From positions 5,209 through 69,208 of the forward strand of contig CAXHJY010000056.1 of assembly GCA_964016885.1 (NCBI GenBank): a stretch of 64,000 bases of DNA, in the 5' to 3' direction. The stretch comes from Eledone cirrhosa (taxonomy: Eukaryota). Position 1 is the first letter of the stretch. Each line of letters opens with the position of its first letter. A model generated the notes under the pieces. The model did no database searches and was not told where the DNA came from. It saw nothing but the letters and a program-made list of their open reading frames with translations. A program made the position numbers and the translations under genes. Positions 5,505 to 63,502 of this stretch are shown here, piece after piece.

Positions 5505-5640
5505 TGAAAATGTATGACCCCGACGGCTTGAGCTCTGCCGTCGGGGTCATACATTTTCCTATTACCCGCTCTACTACCCTAAGTATTGAGTACTCTGGTG
5601 CGTTATGGTCCATCTGGTTCCTTACCACAACTCCTTCGTT
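5505..5640 (+). mobile_element. PLE-type terminal fragment, family A, with short fold-back arm, in (TA)n
   Basis: gaaaatgtatgaccccgacggc / gccgtcggggtcatacattttc inverted pair; 3' tail ...gtattgagtactctggtgcg...tccttcgtt joins (AT)n. Confidence 0.7.
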
Positions 5641-6124
5641 ATTTATATATATATATATATATATATATATATATATATATATATATATATATATATATAT
5701 ATAATAATATTATTATTTATACTCCAGTCCTACAAACTGTAGAGTGCTACTTATCCGATATCTGCATTGCTTTATTGTACTACAATAAAACTCACCTCCT
5801 ACATATATATATATATATATATATATATATATATATATATAATGCGATGAAATACCAATGATCGTTGGCAAATCACTGATGAGGGACTCATTTTATAACA
5901 TGTAAATCCATGTGCAACCATGCAGTATTCTTCTCCCCATATTTTTCATATATATATATATATATATATATATAAATATATATATATATATATATATAAA
6001 GAGTATCTTTTTTCTCTATATCTTTTTCTTTTTTTCTTATTTTTCTTTTTTCTCTTTTTTTCTTTCTCTTTCTTTATTAATGATGTTGTAATTTGAATTC
6101 GTAAACGCTGAGCATATTTTTAAC

Positions 6125-6235
6125 AGTCCTTTCTGATGATCTGGTTAAGCTAACAACGTATTTAAAATTGAGTGGCACAACTTCAAATGTTCAGCAATTT
6201 TTAGACAACTTAATCAGTGAAACAATTGTTAATTG
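6125..6235 (+). ncRNA. Degenerate type I hammerhead motif with long stem II
   Basis: CTGATGA (6133), CTGGTTAAG...CTTAATCAG, GAAACAATTGTT; stem I pairs poorly. Confidence 0.45.
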
Positions 6236-6315
6236 TGTAAATAAACCCTTTTTTGTACTGTTGACCACCTGGTTCCTTACCACATTTCCTTCGTTATATA
6301 TATATATATATATAT

Positions 6316-6700
6316 ATACAATATATTAACAAATGGAAACTATATTTATAAACCATATTTATTTTATTATACATATTTCAAGGGCCACCAAGGCAAATTA
6401 TGGTGCGCTTTCATCAGATAAAATACAATACAGATTAGTTTTATAAATAAATATTGACATACCCTGATAAAATGCAACCTTAACGGTTGGAGCTTCCTGT
6501 ATTGTATTTTATCTGATGAAAGCGCACCATAATTTGCCTTGGTGGCCCTTGAAATATGTATAATAAAATAAATCTGGTTTTATAAATATAGTTTCCATTT
6601 GTTAATATATTGTATATTTACTCCACTAAACTGTTGAGTGCTTTATATTAGTTATAAAAATGTTTTTAGCTTGTTGTATCCCAACAAATTAAATATAACC
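6316..6700 (+). mobile_element. PLE-type fold-back element, family D, with hammerhead on both strands
   Basis: Inverted arms about 6316-6434 / 6497-6617, then unique 3' tail; flanked by (TA)n and (CT)n(TA)n. Confidence 0.8.
6505..6570 (+). ncRNA. Type I hammerhead ribozyme motif
   Basis: Stem I TATTTTAT/ATAAAATA, CTGATGA, stem II AAG...CTT, GAAA, self-complementary stem III ATATGTAT, cleavage triplet AUA. Confidence 0.75.
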
Positions 6701-6750
6701 TCTCTCTCTCTCTCTCTCTCTCTATATATATATATATATATATATATATA

Positions 6751-6827
6751 CAGGGTGTCCCCCAAAATGTATATACATATTTATTAGAATGGTGTTGAAA
6801 TGTGTATACATCTTTTAGGACACCCTA
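6751..6827. mobile_element. Tc1/mariner-type MITE (77 bp)
   Basis: CAGGGTGTCC...GGACACCCT termini, TA flanks. Confidence 0.65.
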
Positions 6828-7058
6828 TATATATTACATATAAATATATATATATACACACACACGTATATTTATATATATATATATATATATATAAATT
6901 TGCAAAAAGACATATATATATATATATATATATATATATATATATATATATATATATATATATATATATATTTATATATATATATATATATATATATTTA
7001 TATATATATATATATATATATATATATATATATTATATATATATATATATATATATAT

Positions 7059-7172
7059 GAGTTCAAATCCCGCCGAGGTTGACTTTGCCTTTCATCCTTA
7101 CGGGGTCGATAAAATAAAGTACCAGTAATGCACTGGGTAATTGCTGGCCTTGTGCCTAAAGTAGAAACAATT
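7059..7172 (+). mobile_element. tRNA-derived SINE, 5'-truncated (Octopus-type family)
   Basis: B box GAGTTCAAATC followed by family core ctttgcctttcatccttacggggtcgataaaataaagtaccag. Confidence 0.9.
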
Positions 7173-60150: not shown

Positions 60151-60305
60151 TGAAAAGATTCAGGACCCCGACGGCTGAGCTCCGGCCGTTTCGACAGCTA
60201 AACGGCCGGGTCCTGAATCATTTCATATTACCCACTCTATTACCCCAAGTATCGAGTACTCTGGTAGGTTATGGTCTAGCTGGTTTTTACCACACCCTAT
60301 CTGAT
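60151..60305 (+). mobile_element. Family A-related PLE-type element with short inverted arm
   Basis: tgaaaagattcaggaccc / gggtcctgaatcatttca; tail actctattaccccaagtatcgagt. Confidence 0.7.
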
Positions 60306-60930
60306 ATATTTATATATGTGTATATATATACACAAACCCACACACACATATATATATATATATATATATATATATATATATATATATATATATATATATA
60401 TATATATATATATATATACATACATACATACATACATATATATATATATATATACATACACAAACACACACACCTACGTTCTCACATTTGTATTACGTTA
60501 CAAATAAATATAGGAAACCTTCCTTTTAAATAAATAATATATATATATATATGTATGTATATATGATATATATATATATATGTGTATATATATATATATA
60601 TTATAAATAATAATGTGTTTTTGCATCTGTGTTTTATCTTGTCATTTCCTGAGCTATGTACAATATATATATATATATATATATATATATATATATATAT
60701 ATATACATGTGTGTATGTGTCTGTGTGTGTTTATATATATTTATTTATTGATTTATTGGGTGGTGAATGTTATTTTTATTAACATGATAATAAAAATAAT
60801 TGTGATAAGCAATGTGTATTTATTCGCTATCACAAATATATATATATATATATATATATATATAATATATATATATATATATATATATATATATATATAT
60901 ATATATATACACATATACATATATATATAT

Positions 60931-61120
60931 ATAGGAACCAGTAAGACCCCGACAGCTGAGCTCAAGCCGTTTCGACGGCTAATTCGAGAATTAGCCGTCG
61001 AAACGGCTTGAGCTCAGCTGTCGGGTCTTACTGGTTCCTATTACCCACTCTACTACCTCAAGTATTGAGTACTTTGGTGCGTTACGGTCCACATGGTTCC
61101 TTACCACATTTCCTTCGTTA
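60931..61120 (+). mobile_element. PLE-type fold-back element, family A
   Basis: Perfect palindrome centred about 60986; (TA)n at both ends; another family A tail at 61315-61398. Confidence 0.82.
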
Positions 61121-62325
61121 TATATATATATATATATATATAACGAGAGAGAGAGAGAGAGAGAGAGAGAGAGAGAGAGAGAGAGAGAGAGAGAGAGAGA
61201 GAGAGACAGACAGCGTGGATGTAGGAGGATGTTGAACGATAGATAGAGAGTGAGTAAGTGATAGTAGAAGAAGTATGTGAGAAAAGAGCCAGGATCCCAA
61301 CGGCTGACTCTTTGCGTATTACGCACTCTACTGCCCTAAGTATTGAGTACTCTGGTGCGTTATGGTTCACCTGGTTCCTTACCACGCTTCCTTCGTTATA
61401 TATATATGCGGACTAGCATCTGCTAAGTTTTGGCCGCCTTCTCGTCTTGGGCATCTCTCTCTCTGCTTTTCAGCCCCTTGGATTGTGTCTATTATATTCC
61501 TTTGTTGGATAAATTTCGGAATATCTGATGATGTCACCAGATTCACACTGAACCCGGTCATTGAAATGTTCTTAGTATAATAAACCTTTAAGGAACTACA
61601 CCAGTCCGGCCTCCCTGTTATTTTATAATATATATATATTATATATATATATATATATATATATATATATATATATGGTGGCTGCCAACTCGTTTTGGAG
61701 TACGGCCACTACTTTATATCCATGTAGAAGAACCCCTACCGATGCGCTGAACGAGTGTGACTTTTTAGTCCAGCCAGCGACTTGAAAACTCTGGTACAAA
61801 CACTACACCTGTGACAATTATTGACACATAGTGCTGGGCCCATAGTACCATGTGACGACAAGTGCAGAGAGATCTCTAGATATAAAGCAATGCCTGTGCC
61901 GTGAAGCTTTTATAGTGAGCAAAGGCACTGCACAAAGCCAGTCCCACTCTCTTAACCAAGATGATATTTACCAAAAGAAAAAGCAGTCAACATCATTGGA
62001 TACCATCAGAGTTGCAGGTGTTATATCAGAGTTTTCCTTCTCCTAGAATTCTGCCTTGACAAAGGCTAAGGGATCATCTCTCCCGGTGATTTTGGATGGC
62101 CATTGACTCTAAGAACTCCCTTGCCCTTTGACAGGTTTTGTTTTTAGTCCTGCAGGATGTCCAAAGTCACCCTCCTCACCAAGAAACCTTGGTGGGGTTG
62201 CCAGCTTAGTCGCCAACGACCCGACCATGAGACAGGTTGTACTGGGATACATGTTACCAGTAGCACCAACTGGTGACCTGACAAATATATATATATATAT
62301 ATATATATATATATATATATATATA

Positions 62326-62725
62326 TATAACCAAAGATTAGTATGGTTCGTTGATTACTCAATGAATACAATTTTACAATAGATTAGAAGCACTCAACTA
62401 GAAAGTTTCCTGGAGTTTTTAATATTCTTCAAAATCTTAACAAATGAAAAATATTCTCATAATCAAAATATATACATTTTTACAATAGATTAGAAGCACT
62501 CAACGGTGAGTGCTTCTAATCTATTGTAAAATTGTATTCATTGAGTAATCAACCAACCATACTAATCTTTGGTCATATTTAGCTCCCAGAAAGTTGAGCG
62601 CTTCTTCTGCAATAGATTACTAATAAATGATGGATGTCATATATCAAATCATATATTTTGTCTGATAATAAAGTATATATTTGATTATGAGAATACTTTT
62701 CATTTGTTAATATTTTGAATAATAT
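62326..62725. mobile_element. Rearranged PLE-type tails, family K, forming nested inverted repeats
   Basis: 62328-62398 vs 62507-62576; 62421-62476 vs 62672-62724; hairpin 62478-62532. Confidence 0.65.
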
Positions 62726-62918
62726 ATATATATTATACAAAGAATGAGAAATAAAATATATTGAGGGTACGGGCGGGATGGAATTGGAAAAAATGTCTTT
62801 AGATAAAAATAATAGTTTTGCAAGAGATGTCAACATGAATGGACCTATTATTTTTATCTAAAGACATTTTTTCAATTCCATCCCGTCCGTACCTCAATCT
62901 ATTTTATTTCTCATTCTT

Positions 62919-62954
62919 TCTTCTGATGAAGGACTAGCGTCCGAAACGTTAAGA
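62919..62954 (+). ncRNA. Minimal type I hammerhead ribozyme motif
   Basis: TCTT-CTGATGA-A-GGAC-TAGC-GTCC-GAAACGTT-AAGA, self-complementary stem III AACGTT; preceded by a palindrome with arms of about 75 bp (62739-62919). Confidence 0.8.
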
Positions 62955-63045
62955 CCCTCTTCCAAGCGTTAACCTAATATATTCCTTCCATATACTGTAC
63001 CGATTGTGTTGTTATTTCTGTTTACCTTTTATATATATATATATA

Positions 63046-63502
63046 TACGATATTAAATAAATGGAAACTATATTTATAAAACCATATCTATTTCATTATA
63101 TATATTTCAGGGATATCATATTAACAATATGCTATGCCTTCCTCAGACAAAATACAATATAAACAGTTTTATAGATAAATAGATTTGACATACCGTACAA
63201 CATCGACTTGTATTTGAAAAGTTGAACTGCCAATTCAACTTTTCAAATACAAGTCGATGTTGTACGGTATGTCAAATCTATTTATCTATAAAACTGTTTA
63301 TATTGTATTTTGTCTGAGGAAGGCATAGCATATTGTTAATATGATATCCCTGAAATATATATAATGAAATAGATATGGTTTTATAAATATAGTTTCCATT
63401 TATTTAATATCGTAAATATACTCCAAATACTTGTCGAGTGCTTTTATATCAGTTATAAATATTTACTAGTTGTAACCCAACAATTTAAATATAACTTTCC
63501 AT
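63046..63502 (+). mobile_element. PLE-type fold-back element, family D, hammerhead at about 63306-63372 (CTGAGGA variant)
   Basis: Inverted arms of about 180 bp with no mismatch seen, tiny loop at about 63230; same tail as 39065-39172. Confidence 0.85.

What the first reader, a model, noticed from the sequence alone, without database searches (positions are those of the whole stretch)
5568..63440. A covarying ACUC-[stem-loop]-UU-GAGU RNA hairpin is shared by the 3' tails of otherwise unrelated hammerhead-bearing elements
Seen: about 20 copies in at least 8 families with otherwise dissimilar sequence, always on the same strand as the hammerhead where one is present, and 40-80 nt from the (TA)n junction. 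Examples: ACTC-TAC..GTA-TT-GAGT (37490, 61047); ACTC-TGC-TAT-GTA-TT-GAGT (9540); ACTC-TAC-TAT-GTA-TT-GAGT (40916); ACTC-CA-CTAAAC-TG-TT-GAGT (6620); ACTC-CAA-ATAC-TTG-TT-GAGT (38502); ACTC-CAGT-CCTACAA-ACTG-TA-GAGT (5721); ACTC-CAG-TAAC-TTG-TT-GAGT (54320, minus); ACTC-TTC-TTCG-GTA-TT-GAGT (50245, minus); ACTC-CGG-TATT..AATG-TTTG-TT-GAGT (55591); GCTC-CTTT-GAGC (39850, minus). The inner stem changes sequence but keeps pairing, while the outer stem and the 2-nt 3' bulge are nearly fixed. Known: PLE pseudo-LTRs carry hammerheads and a 3' tail extension. Inference: this is a conserved cis signal recognised by the PLE reverse transcriptase/GIY-YIG protein that positions initiation. I do not recognise it as a described motif.
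Basis: partly seen in the sequence, partly recalled or inferred. Interest (0 to 1): 0.88.

Follow-up and report, generated by a model that had tools for sequence, protein, structure and literature searches.

The report
Twin hairpins set Penelope start sites
A small bulged hairpin sits in two copies ahead of the start codon of Hydra-type Penelope jumping genes in this genome and other animals, and their insertions end a few bases before these hairpins, one end at each, so the pair likely folds in the RNA and tells the copying enzyme where to start.

Summary
The hairpin is real: 20 sense copies in the window and 88,549 genome-wide pattern matches against 1,125 for the reversed control. Its inner stem covaries (at least 8 independent C-G/U-A swaps). 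It marks Hydra-clade Penelope-like elements (PLEs), so the families are distant relatives rather than unrelated. Full-length elements usually carry two copies between hammerhead and AUG; most window copies are copy 1 carried in the tail. In six families, 240 of 252 junctions to (TA)n lie -1 to 10 nt 5' of copy 1 or copy 2. Searches for read-through copies found the predicted second hairpin in five of five window families (reduced in one). In palindromic insertions, 58 of 59 pair one copy-1 end with one copy-2 end. An ORF-less 539-bp retrozyme keeps both hairpins. Best reading: each hairpin positions reverse-transcription initiation just upstream of itself, and two priming events on one RNA produce the optional PLE tail and the inverted copy. 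Protein binding, initiation and twin priming are inferred; no RNA or biochemical data were available. The motif was not found in Rfam or in ten literature searches.

The parts
5568..5591 (+). hairpin copy 1, family A (Hydra-clade PLE)
   Evidence: family traced to Hydra ORF
5721..5745 (+). hairpin copy 1, family D; very short inverted arm upstream
6513..6554 (+). hammerhead core and stem II, family B group
6620..6639 (+). hairpin copy 1, family B group
9474..9496 (+). hammerhead core and stem II, family C
9540..9558 (+). hairpin copy 1, family C
22701..22892 (-). palindromic family A insertion: one end before copy 1, one before copy 2
22750..22773 (-). hairpin copy 1, family A
31975..31996 (+). 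weak, unassigned hairpin-like copy
   Evidence: E 1.1
37490..37513 (+). hairpin copy 1, family A
38128..38582 (+). palindromic family B insertion, copy-1 end plus copy-2 end; hammerhead at 38396-38437
38502..38521 (+). hairpin copy 1, family B
39092..39111 (+). hairpin copy 1, family B
39804..40390 (-). palindromic insertion of family G, an ORF-less 539-bp retrozyme, copy-2 end plus copy-1 end
39850..39861 (-). hairpin copy 1 of family G with the inner stem deleted
40916..40934 (+). hairpin copy 1, family C relative
41267..41401 (-). inverted remnant of a Hydra ORF N-terminus (profile positions 27-69)
   Evidence: E 1e-5
41387..41404 (+). hairpin copy 2 (read-through) of a family B relative; this insertion's ends do not follow the rule
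45332..45355 (-). hairpin copy 1, family A; tail cut short, no (TA)n
48964..49238 (-). palindromic family B insertion, copy-2 end plus copy-1 end
49028..49047 (-). hairpin copy 1, family B
49618..49636 (+). hairpin copy 1, family B; hammerhead at 49512-49553
50246..50265 (-). hairpin, family not traced to an ORF; hammerhead in the inverted arm at 50346-50373 (+)
50794..50996 (+). palindromic family C insertion with a mutated copy 1 at 50931-50949
51117..51136 (-). hairpin copy 1, family C relative
54320..54339 (-). hairpin copy 1, family B group; hammerhead at 54407-54446 (-)
55591..55619 (+). hairpin with long loop, family not traced; not found by the covariance models
58868..58889 (+). hairpin, family not traced
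   Evidence: E 0.5
60234..60257 (+). hairpin copy 1, family A relative
60933..61118 (+). palindromic family A insertion with copy 1 at 61047-61070
61325..61348 (+). hairpin copy 1, family A
62392..62416 (-). hairpin copy 1 of a further family; its tail ends at (TA)n just before where copy 2 stands in the other arm
62582..62599 (+). hairpin copy 2 (read-through) of that family
63047..63503 (+). palindromic family B insertion with hammerhead 63314-63355 and copy 1 at 63420-63439

Best explanation
Hydra-clade Penelope-like elements usually carry two copies of this bulged hairpin between hammerhead and AUG, their insertions end 2-8 nt 5' of either copy, and each copy likely acts as an RNA binding site that makes the element's reverse transcriptase start at the UA-rich bases just upstream of it. 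Shown: the motif (R-CUC, variable inner stem-loop, 2-nt 3' bulge, GAG-Y, R-C-U), its duplication, its covariation, the position of the ends, the one-end-per-copy pairing in palindromic insertions, and its retention in an ORF-less retrozyme. Inferred: the GIY-YIG domain nicks a (TA)n repeat, whose 3' end pairs with the short UA stretch before a hairpin; copying runs 5'-ward, so the hairpin that sets an end is itself not copied. Inferred, less firmly: both strands of the self-complementary target prime on the same RNA, one at each hairpin, probably through two protein molecules, and the two cDNAs are joined head to head.
For: Ends: 240 of 252 (TA)n junctions in six families lie -1 to 10 nt before a copy; 85 of 89 in loci not selected for the motif, against 30 of 200 TA sites lying in those windows. 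A better (TA)4 match inside the loop of family H copy 1 is used by 3 of 55 ends. Prediction test: searches for copies that read through the tail end found a second hairpin 3-7 nt on in families A, B, D, G and a reduced GCAC/GUGC form in C. Pairing: 58 of 59 palindromes with both ends typed are mixed (63 examined; 25 of 25 in unselected loci, p 3e-8). In 10 of 58 the copy-1 arm is the longer, in 5 of 58 the copy-2 arm is shorter than the spacer, and in L095 a 3,184-nt arm abuts a 33-nt arm that copies sequence the long arm lacks. Breadth: 47 of 55 metagenome 5' regions of 130 nt or more hold one copy, 34 hold two (24 of 29 protein clusters), against 14 hits in 291.6 kb of ORF; 8 of 9 informative metagenome ends follow the rule (6 by script, 2 by eye); 3 of 6 published Hydra consensus sequences (coral, sea cucumber) show it clearly. 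Covariation: inner pair 1 paired in 51 of 53 family-level copies, 27 of 27 in copy 1 with at least 8 independent double changes on the protein tree; UCUC/GAGA variants in L160 and L168. Retrozyme G: 539-bp unit, longest ATG ORF 30 aa, both hairpins, 21 of 21 ends follow the rule. Precedent: a Poseidon PLE starts internally at two sites and extends both target strands in vitro (PMC11167929).
Against: No RNA, binding or activity data. Hairpin stability is weak; three of the four outer pairs hardly vary, so pairing there rests on few changes; inner pair 2 of copy 2 is paired in only 11 of 21, often U.U. 12 of 252 (TA)n ends fall elsewhere, and 92 further alignment ends do not abut (TA)n, of which 26 lie near a hairpin. 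The window insertion at about 41229-41420 and L125 break the rule. Many family A and C palindromes are nearly perfect, centred in hammerhead stem II, as fold-back synthesis would also give. The strand bias is modest: G-U 10 on the sense strand against 4 antisense. One published consensus (Hydra-1_Obim) shows no copy and two show only weak or altered ones. Many loci were fetched by motif-bearing patterns; the unselected subset is smaller.
Confidence: 0.72

Rival explanations
1. One priming event plus fold-back: copying starts at one hairpin, the cDNA snaps back, and the other end is made where second-strand synthesis stops or the endonuclease cuts next to the hairpin in DNA form.
For: Near-perfect palindromes in families A and C whose arms differ by the spacer and centre in hammerhead stem II. 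Craig 2021 ascribe the tail to endonuclease resolution; Frangieh 2024 cite recognition of the tail in plasmid DNA by the Drosophila enzyme.
Against: 10 of 58 palindromes have the longer arm at copy 1 and 5 of 58 have a copy-2 arm shorter than the spacer; L095's short arm is absent from its long arm. Full-length ORF arms end at copy 1 in some insertions and at copy 2 in others, so each copy serves as a start. Copy 2 is not in the cDNA of an end that stops before it.
Confidence: 0.13
2. The hairpin marks an RNA cleavage or termination site; the RNA ends just before it and the enzyme starts at that 3' end.
For: Predicts the same end positions.
Against: Strict one-end-per-copy pairing would need two differently cut RNAs every time; internal initiation is shown for a sister clade.
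Confidence: 0.08
3. The hairpins are mainly translation signals for the uncapped, hammerhead-cut RNA (ribosome entry or feedback repression), and the ends follow only because bound protein blocks the site.
For: Copy 2 mostly ends 13-31 nt before the AUG in metagenome loci, 18 nt in family B.
Against: The ORF-less retrozyme keeps both copies and the end rule; the gap to the AUG is about 55-65 nt in families A and D.
Confidence: 0.05

Closest known systems
Internal initiation in the Poseidon PLE PAc (Frangieh et al. 2024, PMC11167929; main text parts 1-2 of 4 and supplements 1 and 3 read)
   Same: Two internal start sites whose spacer is the genomic tail; AT-rich target; both strands cut and extended; dimer predicted.
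   Different: PAc starts in an AC-rich stem-loop inside the ORF; the RNA stretch printed in its Fig. S1 lacks this motif. No conserved signal, duplication or end pairing is described.
Hydra-clade PLEs (Craig et al. 2021, PMC8557442; passages, section 11 and supplement parts 1, 2, 52, 53 read)
   Same: The carrier family: RW[K/R], DKT, CxCx5C, (TA)n target, hammerhead, optional tail and inverted 5' copy.
   Different: The passages read do not mention the hairpins, though three of its six new consensus sequences contain them; tails here are 70-90 nt, not 30-40.
Non-LTR retrozymes (Cervera and de la Pena 2020, PMC7229834, passages; Li et al. 2026, 10.64898/2026.07.22.740005, parts 1-3 of 5)
   Same: Family G is an ORF-less tandem unit with a type I hammerhead, proposed to be moved by PLEs.
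   Different: No cis signal for mobilisation is named in what was read; here the shared signal and shared end rule are visible.
3' stem-loops shared by stringent LINE/SINE pairs (eel UnaL2) and the R2 3' UTR (recalled, not checked in a call)
   Same: Small RNA structure recognised by a retrotransposon protein and kept by non-autonomous partners.
   Different: Those lie inside the copied 3' end; here the signal lies beyond the first copied base, in the next unit's 5' UTR, and comes as a pair.
L1 twin priming (recalled)
   Same: Second priming event gives an inverted arm.
   Different: In L1 the second site is variable and the arms do not overlap; here both sites are fixed by hairpins and the arms usually overlap.
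Telomerase RNA template boundary elements (recalled); TERT is the top fold match of the protein
   Same: Protein-bound helix next to the template that fixes its limit.
   Different: The boundary element lies 5' of the template and stops copying; this one lies 3' and would set the start.

Membership tests
Hydra-clade PLE | single ORF with RT and C-terminal GIY-YIG | tested here: met
   709-aa ORF with YRDD and a GIY-YIG-like IVY...YIG; model matches TERT best. Pfam gave no hit for 3 of 3 proteins.
Hydra-clade PLE | RW[K/R] motif and DKT instead of DKG | tested here: met
   56 of 61 and 60 of 61 aligned proteins, DKG 0 of 61; seen in families A, B, C, H
Hydra-clade PLE | CxCx5C linker, C-terminal CxxC and CxH, no CCHH in the endonuclease | tested here: met
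   58, 60 and 59 of 61; absence of CCHH read by eye in the first row only
Hydra-clade PLE | insertion into (TA)n | tested here: met
   252 junctions; one homologous empty site already holds TA repeats
Hydra-clade PLE | canonical hammerhead in the pseudo-LTR | tested here: inconclusive
   canonical core in B, C, D, G; deviant in H (CAGAAGA in 29 of 37) and most A copies
Hydra-clade PLE | generally under 3 kb | tested here: not met
   units of 3,244 and 3,543 bp
Hydra-clade PLE | RT tree placement with the published Hydra families | not tested
   the tree held only fetched proteins and no other clade
Non-LTR retrozyme (family G) | tandem units each with a type I hammerhead, no ORF | tested here: met
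   four unit starts 539 bp apart, longest ATG ORF 30 aa
Non-LTR retrozyme (family G) | self-cleavage and circular RNA | not testable with these tools
   no assay available
Any Rfam family | match to a curated model | tested here: not met
   0 at gathering score in the window; only microsatellite-driven miRNA hits among the top 150 of 429 and in 5 loci
LINE/SINE 3' stem-loop | lies within the copied 3' end (recalled) | tested here: not met
   the copy that marks an end lies beyond it
Telomerase template boundary element | lies 5' of the template and ends copying (recalled) | tested here: not met
   lies 3' of the inferred first copied base
L1-type twin priming | inverted arm from an independent second priming, abutting the direct arm | tested here: inconclusive
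   abutting in L095; most arms overlap

The most novel reading that the evidence does not exclude
Hydra-clade PLEs integrate by programmed twin priming: two protein molecules grip two non-equivalent hairpins on one (possibly circular) RNA and start copying from both nicked strands of a (TA)n target. This one design would explain the optional tail, the inverted 5' copy, tandem arrays and retrozyme mobilisation, and would give a roughly 30-nt portable start signal for a telomerase-related reverse transcriptase, conserved across animal phyla.
Probability: 0.5. Interest if true: 0.9.

Novelty: new variant of a known kind. Interest (0 to 1): 0.82.

Why it matters
What fixes the internal start sites of PLE reverse transcription, and why insertions carry a tail at one end and an inverted copy at the other, are open questions in the papers read (PMC11167929, PMC8557442). 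This gives a defined, small, covarying signal with exact predictions for start sites, and genomic evidence that the two sites are used as a pair. It also names a candidate signal by which ORF-less retrozymes borrow the PLE enzyme, offers a marker to find and bound Hydra elements, and bears on how telomerase-like enzymes locate a template inside a longer RNA.

Tried and rejected
Chance: rejected. Residual homology only: rejected; the 5' regions of six families share no blastn alignment beyond 16-33 nt matches at the hairpin or in the first codons, yet pairing is kept through repeated double changes. General PLE feature: not supported; 18 model hits in 298 kb of GIY-YIG loci were, where inspected or recognised, inserted Hydra-type pieces (one weak hit in L031 unassigned), and four Neptune-type 5' regions lacked it, two of them cut short; 4 of 8 nine-mer hits in the Craig supplement fell in Naiad or Chlamys sequences without a hairpin (line breaks can hide matches). 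De novo synthesis of the (TA)n runs by slippage: inconclusive; one informative empty site already held TA repeats and left and right run lengths did not correlate. Endonuclease splitting of existing copies at the hairpin: 1 of 7 candidate cases had a left half. No RNA holder listed for a family A stretch. A two-copy complex prediction of residues 1-480 gave no verdict. Pfam scan of the 150 longest of 250 candidate frames found no PLE domain in the window. Viral contigs held no relative. MAFFT could not align the variable-length hairpins, so the model was seeded from 7 equal-length copies; pair counts on alignment A4 lean towards the model. R-scape, Dfam and Repbase were not available. Lunse et al. 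2017 was not held. The PAc sequence file and the bioRxiv supplements could not be read and could bear on prior description.

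
Full report
Observation. The window is microsatellite-rich DNA from a 3.0-Gb assembly of 1,796 contigs; the species was not determined. 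All 11 quoted hairpins are present. A scan for R-CTC, an inner stem of at least 2 pairs, a 2-nt bulge starting with T, and GAG-Y gave 25 hits (20 sense copies, 5 antisense readings) against 2.0 +/- 1.3 in 40 shuffles. Genome-wide there are 88,549 matches to a tight form against 1,125 reversed. Rfam has no match at gathering score. Folding energy is not unusual in 10 of 10 copies tested.

Which elements carry it. A GIY-YIG search returned Neptune-type elements with DKG; the four 5' regions inspected lack the hairpin. One locus showed the hairpin about 22 nt before the ATG of an ORF with RWR and DKT, the marks of the Hydra clade in Craig et al. 2021. That family (H) has a 709-aa ORF, and its C-terminal half drew 86,314 first-look candidates. 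Clade motifs hold in 56-60 of 61 aligned relatives. The predicted structure (pLDDT 91.7) matches telomerase TERT best, and no PLE structure appeared among the listed hits. Of six new Hydra consensus sequences in that paper's supplement, a coral one and two sea-cucumber ones show the hairpin, one of them twice before its ATG; a crustacean one shows altered forms, one coral one a weak form, and the octopus one none.

Breadth and covariation. A metagenome scan gave 77 Hydra loci, the best of 454. Of 55 upstream regions of 130 nt or more, 47 hold one copy and 34 hold two, about 60-75 nt apart, between hammerhead and AUG; ORF interiors hold 14 in 291.6 kb. Picking copies without requiring inner pairing, one per protein cluster and position (55 in all), inner pairs 1-3 were paired in 51 of 53, 35 of 50 and 26 of 33, above all 5,000 shuffles and above slid controls. 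On a tree of 32 proteins (quick IQ-TREE search, many forks unresolved) copy 1 needs at least 8, 7 and 7 independent double changes at these pairs (three mis-picked rows were dropped). The outer stem is nearly fixed, with A-U for G-C in this genome and U-A in two loci. Copy 2 differs from copy 1: C-G at inner pair 1 in 21 of 24 and often U.U next. A model from 7 metagenome copies recovered 20 window copies at E<0.1.

Where the ends fall. In family H the 3' ends stop just before a first hairpin and an inverted arm stops just before the second. This predicted that window tails stop just before an unseen second hairpin. Searches for read-through copies confirmed it: family A, 400 matches against 1 control, second hairpin then a Hydra ORF; B, 31 against 2, about 19 of 30 loci reading into the hairpin and ORF; C, 150 against 0, reduced GCAC/GUGC form then ORF; G, 635 against 0 and D, 287 against 0. 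A search for a sixth family's read-through found only the window copy. Mapping 1.18 Mb of fetched DNA on six references, 240 of 252 junctions to (TA)n lie -1 to 10 nt before copy 1 or copy 2, mostly 2-5 nt; 92 other alignment ends do not abut (TA)n, 26 of them near a hairpin. In loci not chosen for the motif the figure is 85 of 89, while only 30 of 200 TA sites lie in those windows. In metagenome loci 12 rows were returned, 3 were artefacts, 8 follow the rule (2 of them by eye) and 1 does not.

Non-autonomous carrier. Family G (window 39804-40390) is a 539-bp tandem unit with a hammerhead, both hairpins and no ORF over 30 codons; 21 of 21 ends follow the rule. This argues against translation as the main role.

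Paired use. Of 63 outward-facing palindromic insertions, 59 had both ends typed and 58 join one copy-1 end to one copy-2 end, against 50% if independent; 25 of 25 in unselected loci. All 58 differ in length within their family. The copy-1 arm is longer in 10 and the copy-2 arm shorter than the spacer in 5; in L095 the long arm stops where the short arm starts. Single fold-back does not cover these cases, although the near-perfect A and C palindromes fit it.

Mechanism. Shown: motif, duplication, covariation, end positions, pairing, retention without ORF. Inferred: the protein binds each hairpin in RNA, the nicked (TA)n end pairs with the UA-rich bases before it (TA occurs 3-10 nt upstream in 46 of 52 copies), and copying starts there, leaving that hairpin uncopied. 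Inferred with less support: two protein molecules prime both target strands on one RNA. Frangieh et al. 2024 showed two internal starts, cutting and extension of both strands and a predicted dimer for a Poseidon element, but its start region lacks this motif. Arms longer than one unit fit a multimeric or a circular template; these data cannot tell which.

Prior description. Ten full-text searches and the texts read (Frangieh 2024 parts 1-2 of 4; Craig 2021 passages and section 11; Li 2026 parts 1-3 of 5; passages of PMC7229834, PMC4209133, PMC10085705) gave no description of it. Subscription papers, Repbase notes and unread supplements could hold one. An earlier scan note on a different PLE clade reports a hairpin beside a priming site; it was not checked here.

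Verdict. Observation confirmed, interpretation partly supported and sharpened. A new variant of a known kind (retroelement RNA recognition signal), with an unusual position and paired use. Interest 0.82.

Noticed in passing
families H and A (L093-L099, L204, L223): Hammerhead cores deviate from the canonical form (CAGAAGA in 29 of 37 H copies; mostly UUGA in A), yet both families are abundant and have intact ORFs; cleavage may be dispensable.
   Followed up: partly
G000 genome-wide: Hydra-clade PLEs are very abundant here (86,314 first-look candidates), while Craig 2021 list only a few families outside cnidarians.
   Followed up: partly
window 22701-22892, 60933-61118, 50794-50996: Short family A and C palindromes centre in hammerhead stem II or its loop, suggesting a strong stop for copying there.
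   Followed up: partly
window 41229-41420: Inverted Hydra ORF fragment joined to a copy-2 hairpin; neither end is before a hairpin.
   Followed up: partly
window 41412-42056 (+): 214-aa frame resembling the 3' end of a LINE (DUF6451 hit, E 4e-5; RTE-like by recall).
   Followed up: no
window 32367-32984 (-): 205-aa LINE fragment with zf-RVT (E 7e-6).
   Followed up: no
window 62923-62946 (+): Compact hammerhead core with no hairpin nearby, probably a PLE of another clade.
   Followed up: no
L036, L048, L049: Neptune-type elements here seem to have a separate upstream ORF before the RT-endonuclease ORF, and some 3' ends showed no canonical hammerhead.
   Followed up: no
L308 around 1073-2058: A family G insertion with long TA runs sits between a family A copy-1 end and a family A piece starting at copy 1; either two events or a split element.
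   Followed up: partly
window 18995-19906, 34910-35378, 36987-37380: Tandem and dispersed copies of an abundant short repeat, SINE-like by appearance.
   Followed up: no
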